A stretch of 64,000 nucleotides of DNA from Tubulanus polymorphus (taxonomy: Eukaryota; Animalia; Nemertea): NCBI RefSeq assembly GCF_964204645.1, contig NC_134025.1, positions 4,774,001-4,838,000 on the forward strand, in the 5' to 3' direction. The position numbers and the translations under genes are program-made. Under the pieces are notes generated by a model, which worked only from the letters and a program-made list of their open reading frames with translations, was not told where the DNA came from and ran no database searches. How positions within the stretch are numbered: the stretch's first letter is position 1; every line of letters starts with the position of its first letter. Positions 7,101 to 60,900 of the stretch are shown piece by piece.

Positions 7101-7985
7101 GAAGAATTACAGGTGAATGTTTTTTAAGGGCCGTGATTTGGAATCTTGTTCAATTTTTTTAATTATAGGGTTAGCAACTATAATCAAGAGCTATGATCAG
7201 AGAGGAATACTATTACGTACCTTATATGAAAATGCTGATTTTCAGAGATTTTCTATTCAATGCAGGTGTTGAATTATGGAATTGGTGGAATGTACGAAGC
7301 TCATTACGACTTTTTCGTAAGTTTCTTTTCGCATGTTAGAATGTAGTCAGCTTACGTATACCTAAACGATAGAAAAGTTACACCGAATCAAAAATGAATT
7401 TTTCAATCTACGCAACAATCTTATTCATCTTGCCCCGTCAATCAGTGCTTTTTAATTTTCATATGATATCTGAAAAGGATGAGACTTCGTACAAGTGGAA
7501 TGTTGGAAAACAATTTCAAGACTCCGGCAATAGAGTTGCCACTTGGATGTTCTATGTATGATTTTTCAATGCAGACTTGAATTAATCATAAATTTAAAAT
7601 CGTCGTATTCGCTAATTAAGCAACTTCAAATCTTGCATCCCAATGGCCTTTTTTTCCAGCTATCCGGTGTCAAGATAGGCGGAGCTACAGTTTTCCCGAG
7701 AGCAGGTGCTCGCGTGCCGGTGGTAAAGGGGGCTGCAGCGTTTTGGTTTAATCTGAAACCGAGCGGCGCTTATGATTATGAAACTTTACACGCCGGTTGT
7801 CCTGTACTTATAGGTTCAAAATGGGGTAATGTTTTTCTGTACCTTTATGACCGTTCGCAAAAATGTAACCGTAAAATCCTAATCAAATACATTTTATTTT
7901 ATTTATAGTGGCAAACAAGTGGACACACGAAGCTGCACAAATGTTTCGTCGTCCGTGCAATAAAAATGAATACATGTATTCTTAG
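4189..7985 (+). CDS. P4HA: Prolyl 4-hydroxylase alpha subunit-like, copy 1 (multi-exon)
   Basis: Signal peptide, then ENPINIFHMVRRL, WPTELDITGTAMAFIRLRNTY, a TPR-like FEIGRVAY..AIEWY segment and YEELCR. The catalytic domain reads EELQVLNYGIGGMYEAHYDF, GNRVATWMFY, GGATVFP, TLHAGCPVLIGSKWVANKW. The H-x-D...H and Lys residues are intact. TAG at 7983-7985. Confidence 0.93.
4536..4605. repeat. 35-bp tandem duplication in P4H copy 1 intron 1
   Basis: cgtaaaaaggatcc(a/c)gat(g/c)gattagatacgtaaat occurs twice in a row. Confidence 0.75.
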
Positions 7986-8648
7986 ACGGAAAAAGTATAC
8001 GATTTAAAACGATAATAAAATTGACAATAAAATATCGTGCCAGTCAACTTTTACGTCGAGGCGTCTTTTGGTATAAGGGTATTATAGAAACACACCCCAG
8101 GCCTACGGTTGTGGGTTCAATTCATATCTGCTGTAATAGAAATGGAGAAAATTGTATTGACCCGAAAGAATTGTTTGCCGACAGCCGTCGAGGAACGACT
8201 GTATAAGACATGAATCCACTGGTTATTTAATTCAACAGCCTGCTCTAACAATCGTTGTTTCGCGTTCCCTCAGTAATTCACCCCCGAAAAATGTTGATGT
8301 GGTACAACAGGCAGATTACACCATTCGCATATACAAATCAAAATACTCAGAAATACGTAGGATCCTAGTTATTTCCCAATCATCATTGCACCAAATGACA
8401 TTAAACACTCGCGTAATGACGAGTTTACCCCGAACAAAAGAACAGCCCTACGCTAAGTACAAAACATGTTACAAATTATTAATCAAGTAGCAAAGAATAA
8501 ACAATACATAAGTAATGCATAAGCATAACTTCTAAATGTGTTTGAAACCGCTTATCAAATTGTCCATGAAAATGTGTCTCCATCCAACGTCAGAGGTATT
8601 GATTTTTACACATGTGTCGATCTGAACAGATAGTCAGTTTCAATACTG

Positions 8649-11600
8649 ATGCGACCGATTATGAAGGGATCTCATTATTTGTGCTGTTGGATCTTTTTGA
8701 TTTGTTTGTCAATCGATCAAGTACGGATGGAATGTTTTACGGCAGTCTTCCGAGTGAGGAGTGCATTGGAGGAAGAGGCCCAGTATTTGAGACTTGGTCG
8801 AATGGTTTTAAACAAACTTGATACCGTACCTCCGGACAGCGACGTCGATAGTTTGACAAGGTAATTTGATACGATTATCCAAACACGCTTTCCCTACAGC
8901 TAGGTACCTGATTAGAACATGGGCGAAAATATGATACAGAATATCGTATAGAACGAAAAAGGTGGGTGAATAACTATATCTGAGATTGATATGTAGTACA
9001 TTATCAGCGATCTATATTCGTCATACTTGTATCAAAAGTTTGAAAGAGACATTGGTGACATCTGCCCTTATCCAATAATCCATTCTGTGGGGATATTGAA
9101 CAATGAGCGACTGGCATATGGTAATTCTTAACGTATATCATCATTCAATGTGTCTCAAACATATACGAAGCTATCGAGGAACGAAATCTGAACAGATTTT
9201 ACAGATTTAACTTTTGCCTTGGTATCAAAATATATAACAGACTCACGATCGTTCCCAGGAATATATTCAAAATAAGTTTAACAAAAGGTTGAAAAAAATG
9301 TTATGAAACTATGGCCAGAGAATGAACTAGTCTTTACACAGATCACAAGATTACTGTTTCACTACAGTTTGAACCAACTCGCGTTCAATATTTTGTTTCA
9401 AAAATAATTTTTTGTATGGCTTGAGAAAGGTTTAGATCTAGTAAATTTTCGACCGTCATTGCAGTTTTATCACGCAAACTATAGAAGTAAATCGTCTGGC
9501 AATAGAAGACGACGAATACACGGAAAACCCCATAAACATATTCCACATGGTTCGTCGATTAGCGAAGGTCTGGTTAGAAAATCTATCCAAATTTGAAAAG
9601 TCTACTTTTCTTGTCATCAAAGGTCAGTGAAGGCTTCAACCAGATGGTCAAATCTGAAATCGATATTAGGGTTTGAATTTCAAACGAATCTTCTTCCGCA
9701 GATTTTTTTCAAAGCTTTCAAAACGGAAGGCAACGAAGTACTACGTGGCCAACGGAGGAAGATATTATCGGTACGGCTCTTGCCCTTGTAAGACTTAGAA
9801 ATACATATTTCATCAGTTTCGAAGAATTGTCGACTGGTACTCTAAACGGTAGCCATTCCGAGCCATTGTCCATCAACGAATTCTACGAAATAGCTCGAAT
9901 CGCCGAAGATCGCCGCATGTATTACGAGGCAGTTGAATGGTACGATGCTGTAATTGATCTGCTTGAAAAAGGTGGTGCATTCGATCAATCTATCACCGAT
10001 ATCATGGTACGCCAAGCACATTGTTACGATTTGGTACGTATTTCCCGCTTTCCAAATTAGACGAGCGAACAGCAGACAATATGAAAAATATTCATACGTA
10101 AAAGGAAATATGAAAACTGTTTTAGCACGGTGACCCTGCGAATGCTCTGAGGATCATTGAGGACGCTATACTAAAAGGTGAGACTCACCAATATAGATAA
10201 CCACGTTTATTTATGGCATCGAAAATAATTTGTTTTTTTTTTCATTTGTCGTGGTATGGTTATCGTAGATAGAGATGGTACCGAGGAGTTGAACGAGTTG
10301 ATGGATTATTATATACACTCAGTAAAGAATCTAGGTAATAAAGATCCACCCGTCGAAGCTCTTTCCAGGACGGATATCATAGAATACACATACAAATATG
10401 AGGCATTGTGCAGGAATGACTATGTTAAGGTGGGTCCATAGTATTCTCTTTATAGTTTAATCTAGATTCTAATTTAATTACTATATTTCATCATGATTTC
10501 ACAATAGAGTGCATCCGAGTTGGCCAAGTTAAAATGCTATCGGCAGAAAACCTCGATTCCATACAGACCAGCAGATGTTGAAATCGTCAATATCGAACCA
10601 CGGATCGCCTTGTTCCATCGCGTTATTCATGAATCAGAAATAAATGCAATCATCGAAAGAGCAAAAAGAATTGTGAGTATTTTAATTTCGAAAATTAACC
10701 CATCTTTGACGCAAATCCAAAAAACAACATTTGTTATTTGAAATAGTTAACCAGATCAGTAGTGATATCTCGAAACGGAAGCGCAACTCTATTTTCAGAC
10801 GATCGAATCAGCGAAAGGTTAGTTCACTTGTTTAACTCTATCTTACTTGAAATTCAATATATATCTTTTCCAATCCATCGGGAAGATTCTTATCTTTTGA
10901 AAATGTTTTAGTGGTTGGTTGGCCGATGTCGATGATCCAGTAATTGAAAGAGTATCCAAGAGAGTAGAAATGTTCACTGGTCTAAGCACTCGAATTTTAG
11001 ACCGTTTAAGTCACGCAGAAACACTGCAGGTTTGAACCTGGAAATACACCGAATTAAGTATATGTATTAATGGTACTAACATTTTCATAATGTAATATTT
11101 CAAGGTACTTAACTATGGTATCGGAGGAATGTACAATTACCACTATGACTTCTTTGTAAGTAAATATATCATACCTTATATATGCCTATAATAGTGAATA
11201 CAACGTACACCTGAAATTATGTTCGTTATAACCGATATTTCGTTGTATCCAGTACGAAATTTATCAAAGTCTTACTTGGGACAAAATTCGTTGTATCCGA
11301 TGAATCGTTGTATCCGAGTTCGTTTTAACGAGGTTCGAATGTATGTATTTTGTGAATAATGGATTTACTTTTAATTTGATGAGATAACTTGCGAAGACCT
11401 TATTGCCATAAGGAAGTAAGTTGCCATTACTGTTTCGGAGGTGTTGTCTTATAGGATGAAACTGAACATAAATGGCAAGTGGCTGATTTCATGGAAGGAT
11501 CCGGCAACCGACTCGCAACATGGATGTTTTACGTGCGTTTCTATGACCGTAGCACGTTTTTATGATCGGCAACTCATTAGTGCATTGAATATTCTTACGT

Positions 11601-11962: not shown

Positions 11963-13348
11963 ATATGCCGTTGGTCTAATGAAGGCCGAATTCATTACAA
12001 CGAGCCTAGCACACGACGTATGATTCTTTTTTGTTTATTCATTTTTTGAGAATCTTTGTTATACTGACAGAGTATTTCCTCGATTTAAACACTTATAGAC
12101 AGCGCACTGGCTTATGCAGACAGCGCAACGGGACGGAGGGGTTAAAGGAGCCCTTGGAATACAAGTCAAAGATCATGAACATCCACGCTACATTCATAAT
12201 TATGTATATATATAATCATACTATATTTTATTAAAATGATATGAATCAATGAGCACTTTTTGGTCTGTTCTTATTCGTTATTGTAATAAGCAAAATATTC
12301 ATGTGCGTAATCAGTGATGAACCGGATAAGTCGAACAGTCGTCTTGTGTCGTTACATCACCATGAAAATATACTCTACTCGGCTGGCGATATTTTTGGTA
12401 TCTTAGAATATGAATTATAGTATATATAGGTTAAAAGAATCTATCACGATATCATCTACGTAACTAATCGTCGGACGTTATATTTTCTGAACCTTTGGTG
12501 AAGTGCTGGAAAAATACAAACAGGCCTATATCCTAGTCTTTCTGCATTGCGTGTGACAAAGGTCAGACCATGATAAGTTGCAATAGAGTTAAAGTGTGTG
12601 AGTTCGTGAGTTGACTGCCTTCGCAGGTAAGAGGTAAGCATTCTGAATAACACCGATGAATTATGATAGTTGGTATAGTTTTGTTGTAATATTCTACGCT
12701 GTTGTGTTATGAGGAAAAGTCTGGATTTAGTTTTCGATAGGTTATCACGTTTGATTTAGGTCAGTGTGTCTGAACGTACTTCACTGAAAGTTCATTTTCT
12801 AGCTAATATAGTCAATGCTTTCACTTAATCATCATATATAGGTTTTGCTTACAATGTGTGAACAACTGAAAATAAATATATTCAGTCCATGGCACAAAAA
12901 TTACAACATATGGTTTTCCCGTCACTTTTGTATTCTATATATTGTACACATATGACTCTACCATATATACCAGCACATCGGCTATGACTATCCTTGAAGT
13001 AATCAAGGACTATCATATGATGTATTCGATTGCAATGAATTACTGTGATATATATTGCAATCTGGAATCTCCCTAAGCTCAAGTTCAAGTCCGACTTGTG
13101 TAGAATATAGAATATCTAAAAACTATGGTTTAAATAACAAGGTCGTTGGAACACAGGCAAGTCTTGATTCCAAGTCCATTGGGGTTTAGACCCAGTAATA
13201 TCATGTTTTATCTTTCAGACAAGGCGCATCGTGTGAATGTGGGTTGTTATTCCAATCATCGCAACAAAACAATTGTGACTAATCGGAAAATAGAAAGGAA
13301 ATAGAATTCTTATATCTTGAAGGTGTGACTTGAGCTCGCGGATTGAAG

Positions 13349-15116
13349 ATGTCGAATATCCGAAACCTTCTTTCTTGGAAAGGCCTTACGATCATTTTAT
13401 GCTTGTATGGTTTCTTCAAAGAATTGAGGCCCTCGGAGGCATGGCTGACGCGGTACTTGAAAGAGAACAAAAACCTAACGGAAAACGAAGTGAACAACCA
13501 AATATACCCAATTTGGACATATTCTGCGATGGTCGCCCTTTTGGTAGTCTTACTGATTACGGATATAGTGCAGCATACCCCTATTATCGCTCTAGAGGGT
13601 GTCGCGTATATCGCAACCTGGGCGCTCATTATTTGGGGAGAAGGGGTTTTTCCTATGCAAATGATGCAGTTCGTGTATGGCTGGGCAACCTCGACAGAGA
13701 TCGCCTATTATTCGTATGTTTATTTGATAGTATCGGAAGATCAATACCAAAAAGTAACTTCTTTCACTCGTAGCTCCATTCTGTGTGGTCGCTTCCTGTC
13801 GGGTCTTTTTGCTCAACTTTTCGTCACTTATAACGTTATGAATTATCTGCAGTTAAACTATTTTTCGTTAGTCAGCGTGGCCACGGCAATGATTCTGTCG
13901 ATAGCCTTACTGATCATTGCTGGTCCCAGACGTACCCGCCGTACTCGTACGACCATACTGGTCGCTTCTGATCAGGAGGGATCCACTAATGTCGAAGCAC
14001 CCCCTGGTATTTGTGATGGCGATGATATCAACATTTTACCAACACATCGCGGGCCACTCGAAATCGAACCGTCATGCCAAGGGGATCAAAGATGCTGTAT
14101 GAAATTCCGACGGCGGGTTGTTTTCGAAATGAAAGAAATGTATTGGGGCATAAAATCCAGCTATTCCGACCTCGGTTTGTTGAAATGGTCGGTGTGGTGG
14201 GCATTGGCTACGTGTGGATTTATGCAAGTTGGAAACTATGGTCAGAACTTGTGGGACGAGATTTTGATCGACCAAACGAATCGAAAACTGTACAATGGCA
14301 CCGTAGAAGCAGTTAGCACAGTCCTAGGTAGACCTTTAAATAAACCATGAGATTGATTATGTCGTCGGCGTTCGTTTTTCAATGTTTCAAGAAAAATCTT
14401 TTTCTAGGCGCAATAATGGCATTTTCTGTCGGTTTCGTCAAAGTGAATTGGAAAGAATACGGGGAGCTACTATTGTTTGTTATGTCATTCTTGGACGGAA
14501 TGTGTTTAATGGTGATGTCTCAGACCACTGAAATTCTGACCTGTTACATACTTTATATAGTATTCCGTTCCAACTATCATCTTGTGATCACAGTAGCCAG
14601 GTGCTAAGTATAATCCCAAAATATCATTAAATCGTATTTGCAATATTAGAAAACTCAATATAATTACCAGTAATTTCGATCATGCTTGTCATGTTATCAA
14701 GTTTTTGTTCATTTGATAAAGGTTTCTGTTCCTTCATCACTCATTCTATATCTACTTTTCATCTATAGTTTTCAGATTGCTACTTACCTGGAAACTGATC
14801 GTTACGGTTTGATATTCGGTTGCAATACGTTTATAGCGCTGGTGCTACAAAGTATTATTACTTTTATTGTCGTTGATAAACACGGTTTAAATACACCTGT
14901 TCGACCACAGGTACGTTCCAATTGATTTTGAATGACAATATTCATAGAAACTAACTTTTTTTTTACAATATTCCGGTTTTTTTCTTCCAGTTCATGGTAT
15001 ACAGCGGTTATTTCATCGCGATCGGGCTTATTTTCATGTTCGCCATCTTGTATCAAGTCCAAAAACGTTGTCGTAATCGCCAGGCCCAGACGCTAGAGAT
15101 ACCCAGTCAAAACTAA
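13349..15116 (+). CDS. SLC19A: SLC19 family thiamine transporter / reduced folate carrier (4 coding exons)
   Basis: [103 protein letters not shown] and QFMVYSGYF. First ATG at 13349 (the ORF-track start at 13343 is TTG); TAA at 15114-15116. Confidence 0.95.
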
Positions 15117-16588: not shown

Positions 16589-19500
16589 TCAATTCGATGG
16601 GCTCTCTCCGTCGTTGATCTGTTGGCTGTATTTCGGGCCACCCGCTTCCGAATCTTTCAGTCGTACTTTTTCATCGTCGGATTCCTCGTCGCTCTTCATA
16701 TAGAAATGGAAGCCTAGGTTTAACTCAGGTATTTCGTAGACGACCGCCAGCGCGAGCATCATTATGATTAGACCGAGCAGAAGATACACTGAAACATAAC
16801 GAGAAATGATTTAACAAAAAGCAAAAGAAGACGAACAAATACTCTTCGTCAGGATGATGCCCGGCTAAAAGTTCCAAAACTATCTCGGAAAAAGACGCAT
16901 CGTGCTTTGCTGAGGATTATAATTCAATTTCAATTAGATGCAATACTCAACCTCTCCAACCGACTTCTATCTCACCTGTAGTTACGATTTTATATACGGC
17001 CCGATTCTTCTGCGATGGATTGTCACCCGGAATGTAATCACCGAGACCGATAGTGGTCATCGATATGAAACAATAGTAGAATGCGTCCAGGTAGTTCCAC
17101 TCGGTTTCCAGCGCTGAGAATATCGCTGCCGGTACCAGGAACACGAATACCATCAGTAAGATGACGATTGCCAGTAAATGAACGAGGCGAATATACATCG
17201 GTCGGTACAGGTGCTCCAGTTTTTTGTTGAGCCATTTAAGGAATATCGTCGACGGAATCATGAGCCTTTCGACTACAGCCGTGAACATGATCAACGTCAA
17301 CGGAATGCCCAGTAAAGCGTATATGATGCAGAACACCTTACCCCCCTCTGACAAAGGGGTGGTGTGGCCATATCCTGAAAAAATAGATTCGATTTATATG
17401 AATTAAATCAACAACTCGTTCACTATGATAGACCAAATTCTAGTAGTGTCATTGGGTAGCTGTATGATCGCTTCAGATCAGATGAGACATGTCTCTGAAT
17501 AGTTTAATATCAAATCTTCGTGGTTTTTAGCATCTAGCAAAAAGAAATGATCGAAGAAACGATTGCTGCAACATATGTCGCACTCGTCACAACGGCAGCC
17601 CTGGAAAGAATGAAATGAACGCGCATTCATATATCTTCAATACCACTGTGACTAATGAATCTCAGTTACAGCACTGTTCTTGAGATTGAGTACAGTTGAA
17701 GATTTCTGGAGAAATAATTTAATTTGATCACGATTTCAGACATCGATATGCATGTGAATAAAAACGAATGTTTTAACAGTTATACTGTCAGATCTATAGA
17801 AACACTCTGTATAACTAATGGGGGGATATATTGGTTGATGTGTCAAGGGCCCTTGAGAGCGCACTTAAAATCTTTGCCACCATCTGTTGGTATGCTTGGA
17901 TACACATTGGTGGAATGTGCTATACGTTTGTATTGCAATACGACGAAAATGATCGATCCATTATTGAAAAGCTAAAATTCATAGTCATTTCTTATAAGAA
18001 ATTTTATCTGAAGGAAGCTAAAATAAAACTAACTGGTTCCATCTAGTCACTGTTAATGAATCAATGAGCTCAATGGCACATCCTAAATTTTCATCTCAAT
18101 TCTACTTGTTATGGTTTGGAAAAGTCGCAATGATTTCCGATTCACCCCGTCCTTCCCTGATCATCTATACTCCCAGGAGCTTAGTTGTTAAATTTCTAGC
18201 CAATTGGAAAATCATATGGCTACACTGTACTGCGAAAGAAATGTAAATATATTCGGCAAAATAATGTGATTCTCACCTATAGTTGTAAGTATGGTCCCCG
18301 CAAAGAACAGGGATTGTCCGAAGCTCCAATTCGGCTCGCTGGACACATTGCTGATAGCTGACACGCCGCGTTCATTTGCCTTCACTATCTCGACGATAAA
18401 AGCTTCAAGTTCTCCATCTATGTAAAAGAAAGTTAAAGATATAGAATATAAGCCTTTAAGAACGCAATACCACTGATATTATTCTATCTTATTCGAGATA
18501 ATCATATTTCTACTAAAACACAAGGTCGCTGCAGATTTTCACTTCATTCGTTGAACCACATCAAAGAGGTTCCACATTACAAGAGACCTGTCACAATGTA
18601 ACGGGTGGTAATGAAATTTGTCGAACACCCTAGGACATAAGAAACACCGGGATTCGATGCGAAATGATCAAATAAAAATTCTTTCGGATACATTCTGCCG
18701 CGATATATTCTCAAGGGGTATTTTGTGTAGATTTCAGATCGTCAGGATTCGAAGCATGTTTTGGTAATTTTGCTTCATCGTTTGACGGTTGTTGCCGTTC
18801 GTCTGCAGCGAGTGCTGCACCGATTTTATGAGGTATCGTGTTTCTGCTGCTAGGTAACACCCGAGGTACATCGATCAACCGTGAGATGTCACGATCTTGT
18901 CTCATCGTTCCCTCATACAACGTTCGCGCAGAGACGACGCGAGGACTGATCGGAAAGTAGCGTTAATTAACGCGGGAAAAACAGGGTTGAACACGTGCCA
19001 TTTCGCTATCTCAAATAACAACAATAAAAGTAGAAATGTTTGAAACAGCATAATGGAGTACGGCTTAATGATATTGTTATGACTGCACGTACAGAGTGAC
19101 ATGTCCATACTCACTATCGCAATTAGAACAATGGGAAACATTGTTGCGAGTCGTATAAACATGATTTCAACGTGATCCGACCGGTCAAACCGCAGCCAAT
19201 TCATTCAAAACTAAAACCACCATTGAATAAACCCATTTCATGGGGACTTTTACCAAACTCTTAAGCCTAATCGATTGTTGTGATCAGATTGGTGTTCAGC
19301 TTTGCGCGACGTCCCAGGTATCTCCGCAGGGAGGTGGAATACGTCTCTTATTCTTTAAAAAATTTAAGCTGTCATTAATATGTGTTAATTGCCCAATCTA
19401 ATTTGCTCATTAACACAATTTTGATAGCTGTCGGTCACAAAATATGACATCGCTGTGCTTTTTTGGACAATAAATAAAGTGGCCACATACGGTCCGTGTA

Positions 19501-21623: not shown

Positions 21624-24600
21624 TATATATTTATAACAGGGTACATACGTTTATATATGCCCCAGTGTCCGCGATACGGAAATCATCATAGAATATGTTA
21701 AACGTTATCACATTTTTGCAACAAAAATGACTATACAGAAAAACCTCTGTCAGCTACTTTTTGTCAAACGGGTACTATTTCAGTCGCTAGTTCAATGCGT
21801 TGGTGGCTCTCGGAATAAGAAAAAAGAGCATTTCTGGTGGTAAAAACTATCCTGGATTTGTGGCTTACCTGTAAGGCACTGACTGTGGGTCCTTAGAAAA
21901 TCGGCCCTAATATCTTGTAAACAAGCTCTTAACTCCTCTTCTTTGGGCCCTTCAATAGCTGCGAATACTATAGCTCCAACCACAAGGTAGACTATGATAA
22001 ATACAACTAGTCCAATAGTCCGAAAGGTACTACGTCTACACCACCAACATTTTGCCAAGTGGGCATCGGAGGGCATCTTTCATATTGACGATGCCGGAAA
22101 TCTTTTCGCCCTTGCGGCTAAATGGAAATGATTTAATTCGTAGCGATAAATAATTTCCACGCGATATTTAAACGAATCAGTCTATTGCAGTGCTAGGGGT
22201 GGTACTAAAGCCGACACAGATGACACTATAGGCAAATCAATGGGGAAAATATAAAATGCTTCCCACCTGCGTGTACGCGAACGCGTAACGACACCGAGAT
22301 CTACGTAGTCGCAAGCGAGTCTACAGTCGTAAAGTAAAATTTTACGAGATGGCAATCTGAATAATGGCGCTCTTAATTAAAACCTAATGGTTCGCATAAA
22401 GTTTCATTAGTAAACGAATATATATGCATGAATTCGCCAGATGACTCGCACAACTTCATTCGACGGGATCGCATTAATTCCACAATTCCCTGACCGCTGC
22501 GTAGGACACGAGACGATTCCAAAATCACTGTCCTTGTGCATCAATAATTAATGAAATTCTAGTTCTCCTGTTCCTTGTCCATCGCCCACGATAGCACGTT
22601 CGTATGTTTATGCCACGTTACGTTAACCTTTCAGCCTACATTAGCCCTGTCCGGGCATATTATATCCCTAGGAATGTAATTGTTGTGTATATGCGTCAAT
22701 GCATGAACATGATATTAGCGTGTGTTTTCTGGATATAATGTGACCTTTATTACTATATCGTTATGGTTAGCATTTATTTAGGTCGCAGTCACAAATGATA
22801 AACCTTCCATTTGTATTATTTGTCTGTGGATTAATTTAGCGACACCAACACAAAGTAAATATGAAAATTGATTGTATTTTGTCGGAATGAAAAACGGAAA
22901 ATGCGTAAACTATTTCAATTGATGCCGACTTCTTCATCCAGCAATTTGACTGCAGATGTGAAATTCGCATACTTTGATGATTCCGAAGAAATGATTTGAA
23001 TTTCAATTTCACGGTTTGCATCAACACTGCCGTCGTCGGGCAAACCGGATACTATAAATAATCGCGCGCATACATTTGATGAAATATGACGCTCTGTATG
23101 AGAGTGGTTTGTAAAAAGATAGAAAAACAAACAAATCGCGTGCGAAATCGTCTGAAACTTTCGTCCCGCATTAGTCAACGCGATCTAACGAGCCATTTTC
23201 CGATCGCCAAGAACCGCGGTGATGGTTTTGATTTATTTGTTCTGTCGAAGTTTTTTCTTTTTTAGTACTAAACATGGAACCGGAATCGATTCGCAAATTA
23301 CACGAAGTCACGAGAACAGTATTTACATATTGTAATGGGATTTTATGCGACGTTTTCCGGCATGATGTATTGGCATCGACTGATTGACGGAGAAATCAAC
23401 AGTGATCAGATCAGAGTTTTCGTTGTTTCAGTCATGAGTGAAAAGTAACAACTCACGATTCATTTGATTGAGGTCGCCCACTCCTCCAACAAGTTACAAA
23501 ACGTTGGGCATACGTAAAGTGGCATTTGCTTGTTTTTTTTTTGGTCTATTCACAAGGACGTTTTGAGAAGAAATGTATGTGAATGACAATGACACATGCT
23601 GTAAACACGATTGCACTCGACCAAGTTTTAAATCATCCTACGGATGATGTAAGTTCAATGCCATCATCGATTCTAAGTAAATTCCAGTGGCCGTGCAATT
23701 ACCGGAATTTCGTTCAGTAATCAACTTTGATTAGTGATATTGATTGGATTGACCTGTACACCAATAACAGACGTGACTTGACTTTATTCGCCCACACTTT
23801 TCTGCTAATGTACATACGAATCTCCGATGCAAGTGTTTCGTAGCTAATTTATACTCAAGAAGTTTGAAACATATATTTGAATCTGCATCTATATGGTTCA
23901 AATAATTGATTACATGTATTAGATCATAATACAAATACATGTACGAAATATTATTCAACAGTTCATTTTGTTCAGGAAAGAAAGTGACACACCACACAAT
24001 GCATATATAACAAGTCACAATGCATCTTGGCAAAATGTTGACATGTTTAAGCTCATTTCAAAGTTTTATATGAACTAAGTGTATGCTTTTATTGACTTGC
24101 GATTATTTTCGAGAACGTCATATCAAATGCAAAATTTTGCCCATGGCATTTACAATAACATCGAGTATCTTGTTATTAAGATATCGATTACTGATTGTCT
24201 GAGGGAGAGTGTTTCAATCGGTTTTTGTTATGAAAATGGGTGGTAAGTTCGCAACCAGGAAATCTGTCGGCATATCATTAAGCGCAGTGTATGATTGACG
24301 AGGACTGGTCAAGCGTAGGACTAATAGATAGCCCCCTCAGCGATGGATGAGATGATCTCCCCGATAGCGAATTCTCGCAAGGGCAGTCGCCTCGAGACCG
24401 AGGTCACTCGCACGCTCGGTGTAAAAAATATTTTCTTTTGATTTTATTGTCTTAAATAATTATTTATTGATTAGCTACAAAACCTAACCGTTCGTTCGAA
24501 TTTTTTTCGCATTTTATTCCCCATATTTAGTTCTGGAAAAAAATTCAGGTAGCCGATTATCTATTCACGTTATATTATAGTGTTTGGCCTCCGTGACCGC

Positions 24601-25971
24601 CGTTCATATCGTCGAGCTAAATAAATACATGCAATGCGTGCTTTCTTCGCATCTATATCGTGGACACAATTTGATGCATCCGTCAACATCTACCCACGCA
24701 CGTCCTATATAATACTCAACCCCACACCGCCCGATTAATCCTAGCCACTACATCTTCTAACATAAATGATACGTTTTTAACCGTTAATGTGCAATCTTCT
24801 TGGCTGGTAAGCCTCGAAATACGAGCTAAATATTGACCTTCAACGTGGATCCTCATAAACAAAATATTGTTTTCCGCTAAAGCTCGATACCCAGCGAGCC
24901 GTGCGCATCTCAGGGATTATTTTGAACATGCAATGTTTTGAATTATATGAAAATATTTGTCGGAATCACAGCTTCGACTTGAGATATTCCATTCATTTGG
25001 AAACTAAGTGAAATAGGGATGTCACGAATCCGTCGAATAATTATTCAACCTTCAAACTATCATCGATAAAAGACTTCTCGATGATCTGTTTATTTACTTC
25101 ATGTTCTGTGTTATGCGATATAGCTCCGTGGGATTGCTAATAACATCAAATAAATCCGTCGCATCCAAATATCGCCAAATATATTATCAATACACAGCGA
25201 GCGAGACAGGGAGCGATCTTTCCAAGATCAATCTTTGCTCTCCAAAATCTCGACATGCGAATATTAAAAGGCGGTCGTAAGCGGCGCGTTATAAACGCTG
25301 TTCGTGGTTGAGCGAAAAGAACATGTAGCAATTCCGCACAGTTGCCAGAATGCTTCATGTGTCGCTAAACTAATATATTAAACATCAGTAAAGAGTGGTT
25401 GTGACATATGGCACATAGAGCGTACAACAGCAATTCGCTCTGCTTTTCTGTTTTCCTTTGAAGAAGCAAAGGAATTGATCCAACTAAGCCAGACAGGGTA
25501 ATATCTTATCAAACATAATTGATAAAATGAAGTGCGTTTGAAAATGAACCGTCTGGTTCGAAGGCGTCAACTGGCATTCTACGGATTGACTTTCGTCAAA
25601 TTCTGCTTAAGGATACATACATGTGCAGATATATTATTACATCAAACAATTGCTTGGCTCCTGAAAATAATGATTGTAAGCCCGAGGTTATTAGAAGTCA
25701 ATTGATACACTGTGCAACAACCCCGCTTTCAGCTTCCGGACTTTACGGTCTAGGTTTCCATGGTGATAAATGTATTTTGGGTCTCATTAAGGCGTAGATT
25801 AATTCACTTGTAACGCAACTTAAATCCGGAAGTAACGGTGTCAAAATAGTAACGTCATACTTCACTTTCTTTTCGAACTATTGACACATTGAGTAAAAGA
25901 TGTATCAAAACTCTATCAAGACCATAGTATATATAAATATTTTGTAACTGGTTCTACCACAAATGAGCCTT

Positions 25972-26042
<71 letters not shown>

Positions 26043-26927
26043 CAGTGTTGCTTCCGAATGTAGATGCGTGTTGCCGATGATGATTTAGCGCAGGCGATCT
26101 GCCGCAGTCTCAGACGACGCCTCACGAATCTCCATGGTTTCATTTGACGGAATCTTTCCGTGCCATTTTCAAAGTCGATAATAGCTTTCCGTCTAGCCGT
26201 ATGTATTGGTCAATACACAAACACGATGTAACTCTTCAAGACGTCGGATTTAAACGATATCTTCATTAGCTGGAACAATCAACGCAGCGTTTCCCTTCAT
26301 AAACAAGGTCTAGTCAATAAGACCGGTTTGAAATATCTATTCGATCTATACCAGCTAATGTCATGTTTTCTAATAATAACAGAAAGCAGTTTCTTACGTC
26401 ATCTGTAAAAGCTCATGTTAGTTTATTTATATATCAAATATAGATGCAACCACATTCAGGATTAAACGATGCAAATGCTTATTAGATGGCATCTGTTTTG
26501 ATAGATCAGTAATTGACCTCTCAGGGGAAATCTTTGTATCTGCAGTGCTCTGATTTAATTAATCTTCGAGTTTCGTGATGCATGCAATTTATAAGCAGAT
26601 ATGCCAGTATAGCAGATTACGCGTACGAACAATAATTATTTACAAATTAAGCATTCAAGATATTCGCCAAAAATTGAACGCACTACAACTGCAGCTTATG
26701 AATTACCTAGGTACACAAACACCATATATACGCCTACCTGTTAGGCATGGATAGTTTGATGTTAGAAATTGCGATCTGTAATGTCTAATCCGACGAACGA
26801 TTTCCTTCTCGATCGGGCCTTCGATTGCTGAGAATATGGACGCCCCGATCACCAGATAAAGGATATAGAAAGATACCAACACGATCAGTCGAATGGTACT
26901 TTTCCTAAGGTTTAAATGGAATCTCAT
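16589..26927 (-). CDS. KCNK1: Two-pore-domain K+ channel, TWIK (KCNK1/6)-like; isoform using the distal first exon
   Basis: Exons 26927-26738, 18417-18277, 17374-16976 and 16788-16589 splice in frame. They give M1 (YLVIGASIFSAIEGP), the cap (PCLTDGELEAFI), P1 (WSFGQSLFFAGTILTTIGYG), P2 (WNYLDAFYYCFISMTTIGLGDYIPG) and M4. The GYG/GLG filter pair is the TWIK signature. Confidence 0.9.
21587..21630. repeat. (TA)n microsatellite
   Basis: Visible TA run. Confidence 0.9.
21869..22076 (-). CDS. KCNK1: Alternative (proximal) first coding exon of the TWIK-like channel, encoding N-terminus + M1 + cap helix
   Basis: MPSDAHLAKCWWCRRSTFRTIGLVVFIIVYLVVGAIVFAAIEGPKEEELR...HSQCLT, ending ACAG|GTAAG in phase 1. 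This is the same phase as the distal exon and is compatible with exon 18417. Confidence 0.85.
25974..26042. repeat. (TA)n microsatellite
   Basis: About 30 TA units. Confidence 0.95.
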
Positions 26928-27707
26928 ATCGCTGGTATTCAAAATGATCGTACGCAAGCCAGCTTACTCAAAATCTGCGACAGTCTCGTCTGCAACTGAA
27001 TGAAGCTGCGTTGAATGGTAAAGCATTCGATATTCCGCCGTCTCGTGCCGATCGATCTTATTGCTACATTTGCTAACTGCTTTTTCTAAACTGCGCACTG
27101 CATCAATGAAGCGAAACCAAATTCAATCGTTTTCAAGAAAAAGGAGCGAATACTGTCCTCATTTTTTAACTCTCCACAAAGTTTTTGTTGATAATCGGTA
27201 GTGAATCTATAGACATTCTGTTTCAGATATTGTTTTCTATGATTCTTTCTTCAAAAGGTATATATACATAAATATGTTTTAGACTTTGGTAATGATTCAA
27301 ATTATTTTGAACTCAATTTCGATGAAACGTTAATTGTTGGTGACTCTGGAATGGCTCGCGTTGTTTTCAGGGGTCCCGATGTACAAAAATCGAGAAAAAA
27401 AATATTCAGAGATAAACAAATGCGAACACGATATTCTCTCCGTTTTTTTTTTCAAATACTGTCCGTCCATTATAAAACCCAGCGTAGTTTATATGCCGCA
27501 GATGCCGTGTCGGACATCCATCGACCCGGCGCCAGGAACCCGCAACAATCGCTGACCGTACACTACTGCCATCTATGTAAAATCGAGGTATGAATTGAAC
27601 GCGATAATTTATTGTGTGGATACTTTACCCACCGGTTCCGGTTCCTCTTTTTTGGATAAAACAAAGAAATAAAAGCCAACTTATTAATCAAGAAGCTATA
27701 TTCAAAC

Positions 27708-30700
27708 ATGGTTTATGAAGCGGAAAACATAACTGAAGATGAAGCAGCGTTGTATGACCGGCAAATCAGGCTGTGGGGTCTCGATGCTCAAAAACGGTAT
27801 GTTCTAATTTTCAATTCAATTCATACTTTATTGACTGGTAAGTGTTTTTTAAAACACTTTATCTTATATTCATGCTCCCCATTGATAATGAGCAGCATGA
27901 ATATAATTCATGAAATATATAAATCATCATAATTTATGAAATTGTGATGGTATGGGGATTTGTCCAACCAAGTCCAAGGCAAAGGTCTGACAGCAGCAGC
28001 CGGTTCATCTCGGTAAAATACATCATCTTGGTAATAAGGATGACCCTTCACAGGGGCTCGTATCAGAGTTGTAGATTAATTTAAAAACGATAATCTATAC
28101 ATCCAATGTCTACAATGTATATAAGATAACAAGGGGGCTAACGACGCTCACAAACTAGTCAACTTCAGTCACTTACTATTTTGTTATTCCTCATCCAATA
28201 CATTACCGATATATATATATACACTATAGACATTAGATTAATAGATTATCGTTTTTACAGTACCTACAACGAGCTGCCTACAACTCTTATACGAGCCCCT
28301 GTGGTCTGATTGGTAGTGTAGGCTTGTTTGATCCTACAAAAATGGCTTTAAACTTTCAAATTGTTTTTCATATAGTTTGCGTGCGGCATCTGTCCTCCTT
28401 ATTGGCTTAAAGGGTCTCGGTGCAGAAATTGCCAAGAATATTGTTCTTTCTGGAGTAAAATCAGTAACATTAATGGATCATTCAACTGTAAGCAAAAACT
28501 TCACAATCCATTTTGACTGTATGTTAAATTCTATCTGTTAAAGCAGTGAAATTCTTTCTTCAAAAACAGGTAACAGAAGAAGACGCTTCTGCCCAGTTTC
28601 TAGTATCAAGAGATGACGTTGGAAAAAATGTGCGCATTTCTCTTCTTTGAACTATGATATTTGCGAATAGAGTAAGTTATAATTTCCTATTCATTCTGTA
28701 TATTCTCAATTACAGCGAGCGGAAAGTTCCAAAGAAAACGCCCAGAAACTCAATCCGATGGTAACAGTTAGCGTCGATACCGATAAAGTTGCCGATAAAC
28801 CCGATGAATTCTTCACGAAGTTCAGAGTGATTTGCGCCACGTGTTGTTCGAAGGAAACCTTGCTGAGATTGAACAATTTAACCCGGCGACACGATATGAA
28901 ATTCCTCGCCGGCGATGTTTACGGATATTATGGTTTCTCATTCACTGACTTCATTCAACACGAATACGCTGAGTGAGTTTATTTGTCTTTTAATTGAAAC
29001 TTAAATTAAAAAAAGAAAATTTCTGCGGGTAAGAAAACATTCTAACAGGAATTACTTATTACTTATTTAGATCAATGATCTACGAATGTCATCATCTTTT
29101 TATAGTTGGGTTGTCTGCGAATTTTGATGTTCGTCATCCCTCGCTTGTTTCGTTTTACTGTTATCATTGTATTCGGTATCGCCACTAATTTCTACCACTT
29201 CGACAACGGTTCCTGTAAGATCCTGTTCTGCTGTCGTGTCATTCTCAAAACCATCATTTGTTTCGCCATTTCCTGATTCGACGTGAGAGCTATGGGGCTT
29301 CGGGTCCGCCGGGTCATCGCTCTGCGGACAAACCTCTGAAGGTTCCTGTTTATTGAAAATAAACGTGCGTAGCAGTATCGGTATGAGCACGAGCAATCCG
29401 AATATAATCGCCGATACGAAGGCTACAATTGTTCTAGTATCGATGTTCAGTAATTCCTTCATTGTTGAAAATTCGAAATAGTTTAAGCCCCATTTCGTGA
29501 TGATGGTACCATTCGTTCCGTTAACTACGCAGTGGTAAAGTCCATTGAAACTCTTCTCCATTTTTGTAATGGAAAATGTCCCGCTGCTTACTTTCCTGTT
29601 GCTATCGCTCCAGCCATCGCTAACACTCGTACCATTTGGCAATAACCATTCCATGCTGCCTACGATTTTCGTGAGAAGTGGGTTACAGTCTAGACTATAT
29701 TGAGACTCCATCGGTACCATAATCAACCACTTTCTACTGACCCCTTCACTTTGGTCCATGGCCATGAGACATATCGTGGCCAAGACAAAAAACTTCATCT
29801 ATGAAACAAAAAATGACGTATTTGTTACTTGCAAGGATGTCAATATTTTCAGTACAAACTAAATCTCAAAAAATGATGGAATTACCAATCATCACCTATG
29901 AGATTAAAGATTTTTACCTTGAAATAAATGTATGGAATACACGCAGCGGAAATCCTATCCTTTGAATATATAGATAATGAATCATATCAATGGAGCTATG
30001 TGGGTTTTATTATAATCCACAATCTCAAAGTCATAACCAGTGACCTATCTATATCTGTGAATGATAAAAGGTCAGATTCCAATTTGTCCAAAGAAAATAT
30101 TCTTCTCACTCTACTATCCATGTTCTAGTTTACTATTTCGAGGCTTCATGTTTTATCTTACATGCTTAATATAATGTCAGTGATACTATCCCTTCAGGGA
30201 AATAACTAAAATGAAGAATGATGACAGCAAAGGTGACGAAAACAACGAACCACCAGCTAAAAAGAAGAAGACGACTGAGACTACTGTCGTTAGAAAGGTG
30301 AAGATCAAATTCTTATCACTGATTTTCACCCTATTTCAATTAAAAGAACATCGAGATAAATAGTGCTACTAAACATCCCATGATATTATATACCAGTAAT
30401 CAAGGCTTTATTTGTCATATGCATACGTCTCCAAAAAGTGTTTATTCTTAAAATGTGACCGATATATTTGTAGGAAATGGAATTCTCATCTCTACAAGAT
30501 TCACTACACATTGACTGGACTGGTGATAAATATAAAAATGAACTGAAACGAACTCCGAAAGGTTACTTTATAACGCAAGGTAAGAACTCATCATTTTTTA
30601 CTATGATAATAAGAATGATATCTAATTCTGCTTCCTGTAATCTTGTTGAGAGGGAAGAGTTTTAAGTTGTAATCGTACCGTAATTCGTTTTAGTCATGAT

Positions 30701-40124: not shown

Positions 40125-43100
40125 TTACTTCTTGAATTGAACGATGTACCTTAGACACACTTGGGCTTCATCATATACTATATACTCGTTGTACGCGAGA
40201 ATGTGGTAACAGTCATTGTTCTCTTGTTCGATTAGTTTTCCCATTGGCATCACAATTCCTGCGAATAAAAGCAGAATGTTTTTATAGCATGATTGTCTAG
40301 CCGAAATACCTTTATTAAGCCGAGTTCACCTTTGGCTCCTAAATCAACCGTACATTAGCATTAATATTAAAACATACCCGGTTTTATGGTAACATCAAAT
40401 GAAGGGTTGGGTTCTTGACGTCCTACGCCTTTGATACTGTCAAAATTTCCTTTCGGTATTTCAGATTCATCATCTAAAGGTTGTTTAAATTCTTTGATCT
40501 TTCCGAGAGCACCCTTGAAAACATCATATGCATACAATGTCAAATTGTATGAAAACATTTAGAAGCCAGTGTCACAGTTTAGTAACGTAACTTTGAACTT
40601 CTGGAGATAAGATTTCGCCATCTGGTACATATACCAGCATCTTCACCCGTCAAGGGATTCGAACCCACTACACTAAAGCTGTTCGCCGAACCCCTTGACC
40701 TCACGACTCGTTGGAGTCGTTACTAGCCGACCAGAATCCGGTCGTACCAATCACAGCGCTTGTAATAAACGACTTTAGGCTTCTATTGGTTTTCCCGTTA
40801 AATGGACCAATCAGCGAACGTTTTACCGAACAAGGAAGTATTTCGCAAATCGATATATGATGTCATGCGCAACAGCGCCAGTAATGAAATCACGCTTCGT
40901 GAGGCAAGGGGGCTGGTGGAAGCGAGTTCGGGAGTGATACCGGACCTGGCAAGCGAGGATGATATACCAGCTAGTTCAAAAACACCCGAACGGCTACTAA
41001 AATCTACATCTTGATTAACCTACGATATCAAACTACTTCCATTTATTGAATGAAAATGAATGTTATTCGTATATCTACCTCGCAAAGTAACATAAACTGG
41101 GTATCAGATTCTTCATTATAATTACGGCAGTAATATGAGCTCTTCTTGAATGTGTCAGCCAGATAAATACCCTGAAGAGGACAATTAATGAGAGAAACAA
41201 TGAAATAAATATTTGAATGTCCTTGTAGAGACATTTTTTCGTTTTTACATGGCGAGTTCACGCGTATATTCGTGATCACATCCATACCTTTCCGAACATG
41301 GCTCCGGTGCTGCCAACTTGAGGAGGAGCTATGAGCAATCCCCGCGTGAGTATACTGAGCAGATTAGCTGAACTACTTCCATGCCAGAGTAAGTGTCGAT
41401 TATTGCGGCCGCATTTTTGTAACCGTTCCGATTCACCCTGACGGCTGACTTTATATATTGCTTCCACGTTACTAGCTGCAAGTAACAAACGCAGAAATAG
41501 AATATCATAACGCGATAGAGGCTCAAATGAAAATACAATTCAAACAACTGAACATCGATATATACCTGGCATACTACTGTGGATATACTTGAGAATGTAT
41601 TGCGATTTCGGATCATCTTCAGACATGAGCTGAATTGTGCATCCCATACACTGGTAAATGTAATCCAATGGATTCATCTCTGATTCGAGTAAACGAAGAT
41701 CATATATCAATCATAAAATTCATCGGAAGAATTGATCGATGTGAAAACTCGATATTATTCTGCGATAACATTCAACAGTCAATTAAACACACCTTTCTGT
41801 CTATATTGCGCTGCCAATAACATCTTTCCAGCTTGTTCTAATTCGAGTAAGTTGGTAATTTTACGGACCTGGTCACGAATGAGGCTGTCATTAGTGAGTG
41901 GCCTCACTGTTGTGTACTCGTAATTATTCGTCGGAACCAAATGGTAATAATCATTACTCAGTTTGGCGATCTAGAAAATATGTGAACATCCGTTCAAGTA
42001 TTAGCCGTTCTATGTGCAAGATATTTCAAAGTGCTATAGATGTAACAAACCTCCTCATAAATCTGATGGCATTCTTCCCGAGTTAGTTTCTGTGTTTCCT
42101 GTCGATGATGATGGGCAATTTTTTCCTGAAGTGGCCTGAAAAAAAACCGACAACATATTCTCATCAAACGAAAGAACTTTTTAAACCATGTTTATAGTTC
42201 CCCTGACATACTGTATGAAATGAACACTTACTTGATATGTTCCAGAATTTCTCTGGCTTTAAGAAGAGCTTCTTTTTTTATTTTACCAAAAGGCATGTAG
42301 TCCTCATCAATGTCAAATGATTCGAGAGCTTTGGACAGCATATTTATATTTGTCTAAAAAAAGAAATACATTGTCTATTGCCGCCATGATTTCCGGTGCT
42401 CATCATTTACGTCATTTCCAACATGGATATACAGGTATGCAGATACCCTACAGGTTCATTAGGCATACTGACCAGTTCTTTGAATATTTCTTGAATGTGG
42501 TCGGGAAGGGTTGATTTCACATCAGACTGGAGGGATAATTTAACTTTGCTAACTTTCTGTCCTGGAACTTGGTCCTCTCTAGCAATGAGTCGGTACTTCT
42601 TTGGATGGTTTGTGAAACTGAAAAAATAATAATTGAGAACCAGCGCATAAGCACATTACCTGATAGATATTTTGCAACATAATCAGATTATTATCAGCTT
42701 TATTTCTGACCTTTTAACATTATTCCAGTCATTGCCAGTTTTCTCTTTGAAAACTTTGTGGAATTCTTTGATAGCTGGTTCTTTCGCGGGGAATGGCGTT
42801 TGCTGATACTGGCCAACAGGGTCACCAATTTTACCCCAACGAGTCATCAAAATGTACATGTCCTTTCCAAGCTGATGAATAACCTAAAGTAACCAAGTAT
42901 AAATAGGTAAATCATTTAGAGCCTCAAATCTACTGGTATGTAAAATCAATACCACATTCTAATAATGCATATCACTTAACAATACTGCTCTATACTCAAT
43001 ATATTTTACATCTCTCCATGTTTCAATTTCATACCTGCATTTTATAGAATACATAAAGCCCGAAGTGTTGCTGCACATCAACTTTAACAAGAACCGTATC

Positions 43101-55646: not shown

Positions 55647-57372
55647 TCATTGATTGGATATTTTTTCTTCACAGTTATCTATAGCCCCTTGAGCATCCAA
55701 TTTATAAAACATAAATAGTCCTTGAAGTTGAGCAGCACTGATATTCATTGCACAGTTCGTGATGCGTTTAGTGAACTCCTGAGCTCTGGATATTGACTGA
55801 TCAGGATAAAATCTCAAAAACATTTGTTCTATTTGATATGGAGAAGCATAGTCTATTTTCTGTCTCACGTCTACCCTTCCCGGTCGAATCAAGGCAGGAT
55901 CCAGCCTGTAAAAACACAAAACACAAATTTTTAAGAATAAGAGAAATTAGCTTTTGTCAAGAAAACTTATAAGCATATATTTCCTGTTTCTGACCTGTCA
56001 ATGTAATTTGTTGTCATGAATATAATTCGGGCCTCAGCTGAAGCTACACCATCTAGAGCGTTCAGTAATCCGCTGAAAGTCAATCGCGATAAACCTTGAT
56101 ACATCTTAGATTCTGAAAGTAAAAAGAAATGCGAATCACATGTGGACTTTTGTCCTTTCTTATCAATTTCTGTAGGTATTGAATAATTCTTTGTCAGTTT
56201 GAGTGTCAGATTTTTCTTTTAAAAAAAACATGATCTTGAACTGTTTGATGTGCTCAGGTGTTATTTGATACACTGCATGCGGAATCCAGCACGTGATGTG
56301 TGCAGGATTTGGTTTGATTGAGAAACATGCATATTTCTTAGCATGACTTTAAGAGACATTTCAAAGATAATCTTCGAGTTGACCATCCCAATTTGCTTCT
56401 TACCTATTTCAGATTTTTCCTGATCCCTGCTGCTGAAAGCAGCATCCACATCTTCCAGTAAAATGATACTCTGTTGGGGTGCTACTGTGAGTAAATGGTT
56501 TAAGCGATCATCCGTCAAACCGCGTTCACTGAGGTTCAATACACAAATACCGTAATCCAGAGCACCTAAAAATGCAGTCGATATGAGAAAATAATTCAAC
56601 TGAAATAAGGAAAATTAAGAAAAAATAATTGTAACTAACCTGCTAATGCCATGATGAAGCTACTTTTGCCACAGCCGGGAGGACCATACAATAAATATCC
56701 CCTGCGGTATGGTATTCCTCTGTCCATGTACCATTTTGGATTGTTTATGAATTCAGTAACATCTGAATGAAGTTTCTCTGGAATATCCTTATCCAGTACC
56801 ACAGATTCTAATGGACGTTTCTTTCTGGGATAACCGAACTGTCTCCAATCACCACCCATAGCGGTGTACATGATTGTTTTGCCTTCTTGATGTTGCAAGG
56901 CCATTTGACGAGCGTATTCAAGAATTTCGAAATAAATAGTCCTTTTCATACCAAGCGTTGTCAGCGTAACAGTTTCCCAAGGTACACCGTGTTGAAAATC
57001 AACCATCTGTTTCTCGCGATTTCTTTCAACTTTGATGAAGTGGTTTTTATACCAGAAGAAATGTGTGCCCGGACTCGGTATGAAGTCAAAGTGAGTTGTC
57101 ACTTTGCCAGCTTCGCTCTGCTGGAATTTCGTTTCGACACTTAAATGTTGAGTTCTTGTTCCGTGTTCAGCGAGCCAATGTAACAACCATTGATAGCTTT
57201 TATCTTTACTAGGAACTTCCAAAGTAATCATACAGTGTCGCCGGAATAAAGTGACTCCATGTTGACCACCCTTTTTGAGAATGGCCAAAGCTGTACCAAC
57301 ACCAACAAGTCCAAATCCAGCACCAAAATATGGATTGTCTTTCAAAGATAGAATTAACTCAGAAAGTGGCAT
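55647..57372 (-). CDS. BCS1L: Mitochondrial AAA chaperone BCS1 (4 coding exons)
   Basis: [26 protein letters not shown], Walker A (GPPGCGKS), Walker B (ILLEDVD), [15 protein letters not shown] and [17 protein letters not shown]. Exons 57372-56640, 56565-56404, 56112-55995 and 55905-55647. Confidence 0.97.
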
Positions 57373-57849
57373 GTCGACCTATATCACCTTTAGCTACCAC
57401 CCAGTACTAAAAGACTGAAAAAGAAAATAAGACTTTTTATAGCAATGGTTTCTTGTCACATCTCATACTGGTTTGTGGCGTCCGAAAGCAAAGCAAATCT
57501 TTCGAAAAAAGGAAGGGCCTGTGACAATGACAGTCAAGTCAGAGTTTTGTGCGTCCCGTGGACGTGGTGGTCAAGAAATTTTGTGTTTTTTTCTACTATC
57601 GTGAAGTGAGCCTGTTATTCCAGCCTCGTATTCAGATATAGTGTGTACACACTGTATAGCTGCCTGTAGATACTGTTGACATGAAATGTATAACTTAACA
57701 CTTTGACCGGACGAAACGACGATCATTCAATAAAGTCACCGGGGCAGAAGAGTGATCAATAATTGTTTTATATAATTAAAATGTGTAGTGATTTTCGTAA
57801 ATTTCATAGATTTTCATCGAAATGTATTTTACATCAATTATGCCTGTTA

Positions 57850-60800: not shown

Positions 60801-60900
60801 TCTTTAAGTTGACTTAAGACAAAAAGAATTTCTTTTATCTGAATTTTTTAAATATCTATAAGTTGATGTTAGGCAGAAGTCTGTGCATTGGTTTTTACGT
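57850..60900. repeat. Tandem satellite array, ~183-bp unit, about 16-17 copies
   Basis: The anchor gcagatgtc recurs at 58988, 59171, 59354, 59537, 59720, 59903, 60086 and 60269 (183-bp spacing). Edge copies are degenerate. Confidence 0.97.

What the first reader, a model, noticed from the sequence alone, without database searches (positions are those of the whole stretch)
21869..26927. K2P channel with two duplicated, interchangeable first exons that swap the N-terminus, M1 helix and cap
Seen: two paralogous ATG-initiated exons (22076-21869 and 26927-26738) each encode a basic N-terminus, M1 (YLV.GA..F.AIEGP) and the first cap helix. Both end C-L-T-G|GT in phase 1. Only one set of downstream pore exons is present (18417-16589). 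Established: in TWIK-1 the cap cysteine forms the inter-subunit disulfide, and M1 and the cap shape dimer assembly and extracellular access. Inference: alternative promoters put a variable M1/cap module on a constant pore, as in protocadherin or UGT1 loci, allowing two homodimers and a heterodimer from one gene. The proximal form adds a CWWC motif (possible palmitoylation) and an extra cap Cys. The 8-kb intronic region is very large for this compact genome, which fits separate regulation. I consider this the strongest candidate here for an undescribed system.
Basis: partly seen in the sequence, partly recalled or inferred. Interest (0 to 1): 0.8.

Follow-up and report, generated by a model that had tools for sequence, protein, structure and literature searches.

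The report
Potassium channel gene, two swappable fronts
This potassium leak-channel gene carries two old, intact versions of its first exon; RNA shows one spliced onto the single shared set of pore exons and the other likely is too, so the gene likely makes two subunits that differ only in the first membrane helix and half of the outer cap, a layout already present in public annotations of many invertebrates.

Summary
Observation confirmed. A TWIK-type (KCNK1-like) K2P gene, probably nemertean, has two paralogous coding first exons (A 26927-26738, B 22076-21869; 30/63 aa identical), both phase 1, and one set of pore exons. RNA-like contigs from 3 of 4 runs (2 studies) join B exactly to exon 2 behind a colinear ~650-nt leader, so B is a true first exon. 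The A-to-exon-2 join was not seen here. A is nonetheless intact and 66% identical to an oyster head. The swap falls at the cap apex. The layout is not peculiar to this genome: 25 protein pairs from nemerteans, brachiopods, molluscs and arthropods swap heads at this junction, most of them NCBI isoforms. The scan noted it before in an arthropod genome (e1-7709245). Ten literature searches found no description. It works like ASIC1a/1b and ASIC2a/2b more than like a protocadherin array. Heads differ in tail sorting motifs and cap cysteine, so different targeting or gating is the likely purpose (untested).

The parts
26738..26927 (-). Distal coding first exon A: short N-tail, TM1, hinge Pro, cap helix 1, cap Cys (C61); phase-1 donor
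   Evidence: 39/59 identical to oyster head P0027, 31/63 to Lineus isoform X3 head; splice to exon 2 not seen
21869..22076 (-). Coding part of proximal first exon B: CWWC tail, TM1, hinge Pro, cap helix 1 with extra Cys (C52), cap Cys (C67); phase-1 donor
   Evidence: spliced to 18417 in X4, X5, X6; 43/67 identical to Lineus isoform X2 head
22077..22722 (-). Transcribed, unspliced 5' leader of exon B (at least 646 nt) with 12 upstream ATGs; B promoter likely just upstream
   Evidence: contigs of X4 (from 22722) and X5 (from 22674) are colinear from their first base; ATG count
18277..18417 (-). Shared exon 2: cap helix 2, N-glycosylation sequons, pore helix 1
   Evidence: acceptor used in RNA-like contigs
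16976..17374 (-). Shared exon 3: GYG-H, TM2, TM3, pore 2 (TIGLG)
   Evidence: (Ion_trans_2)
16589..16788 (-). Shared exon 4: TM4, C-tail, stop
26928..27635 (.). About 700-nt gap between exon A's ATG and the 5'-most transcribed base of the divergent SAE1 gene; likely holds the A promoter
   Evidence: SAE1 identity; SAE1 contigs start at 27636/27641; promoter position is inference

Best explanation
One TWIK-type K2P gene has two duplicated coding first exons; the proximal one (B) is spliced to the shared exon 2, and the distal one (A) likely is too from its own promoter, so the gene likely yields two subunits that differ only in the N-tail, TM1 and cap helix 1. Shown: exon anatomy, B-to-exon-2 splice, B's own leader, one pore set, junction at the cap apex, same swap in orthologues of four phyla. 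Inferred: A is used from a promoter in the ~700-nt gap facing SAE1; promoter choice sets which head a cell makes. Since TM1 is the domain-swapped helix and TM1-CH1 is the hinged element that lifts the cap in TWIK-1 pH gating, the two heads would tune assembly, gating and above all address: A has a short motif-free tail (predicted default surface form), B a conserved CWWC tail (predicted S-acylation site). Co-expression would allow A/A, B/B and A/B dimers.
For: B junction: loose ends at 21869 in X4, X5, X6 equal the first 30 nt of exon 2 (3 of 4 runs laid, 2 studies); X4 and X5 also splice three SAE1 introns, so behave as RNA. A is under constraint: open frame, consensus donor, 39/59 identical to oyster and 33/58 to scorpion heads; the one coding difference in another sample is synonymous. 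A and B are not a species-specific duplicate (AU p=0.0007); B pairs with Lineus B (97/98). Lineus XP_064623628.1 (X3) and XP_064623627.1 (X2) carry the A-like and B-like heads on an identical constant part. 25 such pairs in all, 18 of them identical from junction to C-terminus; both head types stand on transcript-sized contigs (1.5-2.4 kb) in two unnamed JGI pairs and the cuttlefish group. A donor joined to any of 17 AG sites in the 400 nt before B's ATG always meets a stop. AlphaFold model of Lineus B (pLDDT 85.7): helix 4-61, turn 62-67, next helix starts at residue 68, the first shared residue. Domain swap and hinge: PMC9184524, PMC12960705, PMC8436263 (passages).
Against: No spliced exon A was seen in this species, so one of the two junctions is still inferred. 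RefSeq isoforms are predicted models whose read support I could not see. The window's B tail has no dileucine motif, and the motif differences among heads are patchy (dileucine in 4 of 25 B heads in the paired set), so the 'address' function is an inference. The tree on 56-58 columns cannot show that all B heads share one origin.
Confidence: 0.87

Rival explanations
1. Exon A is an orphan in this species: intact but no longer spliced, so only the B form is made.
For: Only the B junction is demonstrated here; X4 and X5 each hold a long B-form contig that is not broken at the branch point.
Against: A is the more conserved head across phyla (short end branch 0.11-0.23), has an intact ATG, frame and donor, and Lineus annotates the A form. 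A dead exon would not stay 66% identical to an oyster head.
Confidence: 0.07
2. Two tandem genes, with A's own pore exons collapsed in the assembly or lost.
For: Tandem full copies do occur in this family: Lineus P0002 is a fused model of two extra B-headed units.
Against: No pore remnant between A and B; 18 of 25 orthologous pairs are identical over the whole constant part, which separate genes with heads this diverged would not be.
Confidence: 0.04
3. A and B are used in one transcript (A spliced into B's leader), A acting as an upstream regulatory exon or giving a truncated one-helix peptide.
For: An acceptor-like site lies at 22117 (10 of 14 pyrimidines).
Against: All 17 possible acceptors within 400 nt give a stop; B contigs of two studies run unspliced through 22117 to beyond 22670; A's protein-level conservation argues for use in a full channel.
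Confidence: 0.02

Closest known systems
Annotated isoform pairs of protostome 'potassium channel subfamily K member 1/6-like' genes (e.g. Lineus XP_064623627.1/XP_064623628.1; Lingula XP_013410263.1/XP_013410264.1; Mercenaria XP_045177470.2/XP_045177476.1)
   Same: Same gene, same junction two residues after the cap Cys, same A-like versus other head; Lineus B keeps CWWC and the extra cap Cys.
   Different: These are database models; no paper describing them was found. Arthropod non-A heads have long tails and often lack the cap Cys, whereas this B keeps it.
ASIC1a/1b and ASIC2a/2b
   Same: One gene, two isoforms differing in N-terminus, TM1 and the proximal ectodomain with the rest identical; for ASIC2 this sets surface versus ER location, proton sensitivity and rescue by heteromers (PMC4967927, abstract and passages).
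   Different: Unrelated trimeric Na+ channels; the variable part is about a third of the ectodomain. That these arise from alternative first exons is recalled, not read in the passages.
Vertebrate TWIK-1 (KCNK1) and TWIK-2 (KCNK6)
   Same: Best solved-structure matches of the Lineus orthologue (3e-71, 6.6e-59); GYG-H and GLG filters, cap Cys, hinge Pro.
   Different: SF1 is TIGYG, not TWIK-1's TTGYG; no C-terminal [DE]xxxL[LI] motif; no swapped heads seen among the deuterostome proteins returned.
Clustered protocadherins and UGT1A (recalled)
   Same: Variable first exon chosen by promoter and spliced to constant exons.
   Different: Two exons rather than an array; no evidence of stochastic single-cell choice.

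Membership tests
K2P, TWIK subfamily | Two pore motifs, GYG then GLG, in a four-TM subunit with a two-helix cap | tested here: met
   TIGYG and TIGLG; helix layout in model of the Lineus orthologue
K2P, TWIK subfamily | Closest solved relatives are KCNK1/KCNK6 | tested here: met
   Lineus P0005 as proxy (179/244 identical constant part): KCNK1 3e-71, KCNK6 6.6e-59, TREK 5e-42. The heads alone score best on TRAAK, too short to classify
K2P, TWIK subfamily | Cap-apex cysteine (TWIK-1 C69) and His after filter 1 (H122) | tested here: met
   C61 (A), C67 (B); TIGYGH
Vertebrate TWIK-1 proper | TTGYG filter 1 and C-terminal dileucine-type endocytosis motif | tested here: not met
   TIGYG; no [DE]xxx[LI][LI] in the shared tail; motifs from PMC9184524, PMC5428834
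K2P, TWIK subfamily | Weak K+ current, acid inhibition | not testable with these tools
   needs electrophysiology
Duplicated alternative first exons (ASIC1/2 type) | Paralogous exons encoding N-terminus, TM1 and proximal ectodomain, same phase | tested here: met
Duplicated alternative first exons (ASIC1/2 type) | Each exon is spliced to the common exon | tested here: inconclusive
   B shown; A not seen, inferred from orthologues
Duplicated alternative first exons (ASIC1/2 type) | Isoforms differ in trafficking or gating and co-assemble | not testable with these tools
   motif differences only
Variable-exon clusters (protocadherin/UGT1A) | Array of many variable exons | tested here: not met
   two heads only in the window
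Variable-exon clusters (protocadherin/UGT1A) | Own promoter per variable exon, stochastic or CTCF-guided choice | tested here: inconclusive
   B leader is colinear, consistent with its own start; contigs cannot give start sites; choice mechanism not tested

The most novel reading that the evidence does not exclude
A single duplication in the protostome ancestor made TWIK's domain-swapped module (tail, TM1, cap helix 1) a promoter-selected address-and-gate switch: the conserved short-tailed A head gives a disulfide-capped surface channel, while the B head carries the sorting signal (Cys-rich, likely acylated in lophotrochozoans; acidic dileucine, often without the cap disulfide, in arthropods). 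Invertebrates would thus do with two exons what vertebrates do with TWIK-1 and TWIK-2 C-terminal motifs, and A/B heterodimers would be a natural test of what the swapped M1 does.
Probability: 0.3. Interest if true: 0.7.

Novelty: new variant of a known kind. Interest (0 to 1): 0.5.

Why it matters
A review of K2P structure (PMC8436263, passages) names as open what the domain-swapped M1 does and how pairing one subunit's M1 with a partner's pore changes heterodimers. These isoforms differ only in that swapped segment, cut at the cap apex, so they are a natural experiment for that question. The layout is kept in four invertebrate phyla that include neurobiology models and pests, so 'KCNK1' expression and cloning in those animals mix two proteins that may be sorted differently.

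Tried and rejected
No RNA holder was on record in the run search. No contig of the two RNA-like runs X4 and X5 lay on exon A; contigs drop rare forms, so this is no evidence of silence. No whole genome is held, so other K2P loci and the assembly could not be checked. A search with exon A alone returned only 4 proteins of 10 candidates. The single-sequence fold was unusable (pLDDT 46) and was replaced by an alignment-based one. The sigma-70 promoter scan is irrelevant to an animal gene. A complex prediction was not run, since a K2P dimer would pass by likeness to solved structures. Trees could not decide one versus several duplications: nemertean-only p=0.086, all-A clade p=0.357, all-B clade p=0.345. 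Deuterostome proteins returned (amphioxus 6 full heads, lamprey 2, urchin 3, crinoid 1) showed one head per species, but one amphioxus record is 'isoform X1' with an unseen X2, so the phylogenetic limit is open. One of the 25 groups flagged (Daphnia species, all B-type) was dropped as spurious. A lysosomal dileucine reading for this species' B head was rejected: it has none. Look-ups of earlier findings by sequence, relatives and place gave nothing.

Full report
Observation. A (26927-26738, 190 nt) and B (22076-21869, 208 nt) begin with ATG behind an in-frame stop, are open, and end in phase 1 at consensus GT donors. They are paralogous (30 of 63 residues identical; score 135, maximum 43 in 2000 shuffles), and each matches TM1 plus cap helix 1 of solved K2P channels. 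One exon 2 (18417-18277), exon 3 (17374-16976) and exon 4 (16788-16589) complete either frame. tblastn and four HMMs run over six frames with a shuffled control find exactly two heads and one copy of each pore exon in the window. The 'G' before the donor is the first base of an Asp codon.

Identity of the gene. The exon-3 search returned 301 proteins (E<=1e-20) of 764 candidates, 120 listed; those with a specific name are KCNK1/KCNK6-like. The Lineus longissimus orthologue is 179/244 identical in the constant part and shares the CWWCRRST head, so the window is probably nemertean (inference). Using that orthologue as proxy, the best solved matches are TWIK-1 and TWIK-2. The window protein has TIGYG-H and TIGLG, the cap Cys and the hinge Pro, but lacks TWIK-1's TTGYG and the C-terminal dileucine-type motif (motifs from passages of PMC9184524 and PMC5428834).

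RNA. No run was on record as RNA, but X4 and X5 splice three introns of the neighbouring SAE1 gene and have no intron cover, so they behave as RNA. On the exon B stretch, 3 of 4 runs laid (X4, X5, X6; two samples, two studies) end at 21869 with loose letters equal to the first 30 nt of exon 2. The X4 and X5 contigs (2863 and 2563 nt) are colinear from their first base at 22722 and 22674, so B is a first exon with a leader of at least 646 nt and is not reached from A. The A junction was not seen and remains inferred. In X2 and X3, which behave as DNA, exon A has one coding difference, at a third codon position (Gly, synonymous). A joined to any of 17 AG sites within 400 nt of B's ATG meets a stop.

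Conservation. Of 374 proteins held, 316 had a usable first pore motif; 35 groups were >=97% identical around it, and 25 showed two or more heads, one of which I dropped as spurious. Adding Lingula X2/X3 gives 25 pairs: 19 under one species name, 3 across species or genera, 2 unnamed JGI pairs and one cuttlefish group mixing named and unnamed records. All swap at the residue where this gene's intron lies, and 18 of 25 are identical from there to the C-terminus. They span Nemertea, Brachiopoda, Mollusca and Arthropoda. The other 10 groups showed one head, which says little because listings were capped. Window A is 39/59 identical to an oyster head, 33/58 to a scorpion head and 31/63 to Lineus A; window B is 43/67 identical to Lineus B. 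A clade of window A plus B is rejected (p=0.0007); a nemertean-only duplication (p=0.086), an all-A clade (p=0.357) and an all-B clade (p=0.345) are not rejected on 58 columns (29 rows chosen by me. The 104-row tree left out 8 duplicate, mis-cut or odd rows and is mostly unresolved). So the duplication predates the split from Lineus, and a protostome-wide origin is likely but not shown. No swap was seen among the few deuterostome proteins returned.

Structure and mechanism. In an alignment-based model of Lineus B (70 rows, pLDDT 85.7) one helix runs from residue 4 to 61, a turn holds the cap Cys, and the next helix starts at residue 68, the first shared residue. The variable exon is therefore the continuous TM1-CH1 helix. 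In TWIK-1 and TWIK-2 this M1 is domain-swapped between subunits, and in TWIK-1 the P47 kink in TM1-CH1 lets the cap rise during pH gating (PMC9184524, PMC12960705, passages). The proton-sensing His and both filters are in the constant part. Exon A faces the SAE1 gene across about 700 nt, so its promoter is likely in that gap (inference).

How the heads differ (104 heads grouped by tree and names, related sequences not independent). A-type tails are short (median 7-16 aa) and keep the cap Cys in 44 of 46. Lophotrochozoan B-type heads keep it in 17 of 17, and 7 of 17 have two or more tail cysteines, against 0 of 15 A-type. Non-lepidopteran arthropod B-type heads have long tails, with a strict [DE]xxxL[LI] in 8 of 18 (0.84 expected from shuffles; 0 of 18 in A) and the cap Cys in only 7 of 18; lepidopteran B-type heads have the motif in 0 of 23 and the Cys in 0 of 23. 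In the paired set the motif is in 4 of 25 B and 0 of 25 A heads. This class of motif drives endolysosomal sorting of TWIK-1 and TWIK-2 from their C-termini (PMC5428834, passages). I therefore commit to: promoter choice selects the head, and the head mainly sets location, with possible effects on gating and assembly. For this species the predicted signal is S-acylation of CWWC; this is untested.

Comparison with what is known. It works like ASIC2a/2b, which differ in N-terminus, TM1 and the proximal ectodomain and thereby in surface delivery and heteromer rescue (PMC4967927, abstract and passages); claudin-18 variants appeared in a search listing only (PMC13650739). The protocadherin/UGT1A comparison is recalled and fits the logic, not the scale. 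Ten full-text searches found no paper describing swapped TM1-cap first exons in a TWIK gene; the library lacks most subscription papers. A crab gene-architecture preprint notes only that KCNK1 has large introns (10.64898/2026.08.12.744261, passages; its supplements were not seen and may list isoforms). An octopus paper lists a KCNK orthologue without isoforms (PMC12919962, passages). The scan itself noted the same layout in an arthropod genome (e1-7709245) and related multi-front K2P genes with a different junction (e1-10603389, e1-7506955); I saw these after finding the pairs myself and did not test the latter two.

Verdict. Real, old and widespread, visible in public annotation, apparently not written up. 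New variant of a known kind. Interest 0.5: not unique to this genome, but it offers a natural test of an open K2P question.

Noticed in passing
window 27636-28976 (+): SAE1 (SUMO-activating enzyme subunit 1) lies head-to-head with exon A, about 700 nt away; three introns spliced in X4 and X5.
   Followed up: partly
window 22722-22077 (-): B leader holds 12 upstream ATGs; the one at 22083 opens a 15-codon frame overlapping the main start out of frame, which could damp translation of B.
   Followed up: partly
protein P0002 (Lineus): A fused model of two extra tandem channel units, both with B-type heads (59/67 and 58/67 identical to B), as expected if the proximal promoter plus pore exons were duplicated as a unit.
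   Followed up: partly
protein P0119 (Papilio machaon): One model strings two B-type heads in tandem, suggesting three first exons in that species.
   Followed up: no
window 29100-29798 (-): Uninterrupted 232-aa ORF that looks like signal peptide, Ig-like part and one TM helix, possibly nested in an SAE1 intron; no Pfam hit.
   Followed up: partly
window 28049-28303: Imperfect inverted repeat in an SAE1 intron with many loose-ended contigs, like a small dispersed element.
   Followed up: no
window 57899-60818: Tandem array of a 183-nt unit, 16 copies, 87% matches.
   Followed up: no
window 63056-63406 (+): GIY-YIG endonuclease fragment below the Pfam cut-off, probably a Penelope-like element remnant (element class recalled).
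   Followed up: no
window 5371-10060 (+), 13334-14350 (+), 41043-52807 (-), 55647-57378 (-): Neighbours: two similar prolyl-4-hydroxylase-alpha-like exons, a reduced-folate-carrier family gene, an ankyrin-repeat gene with a weak PARP hit, and BCS1.
   Followed up: no
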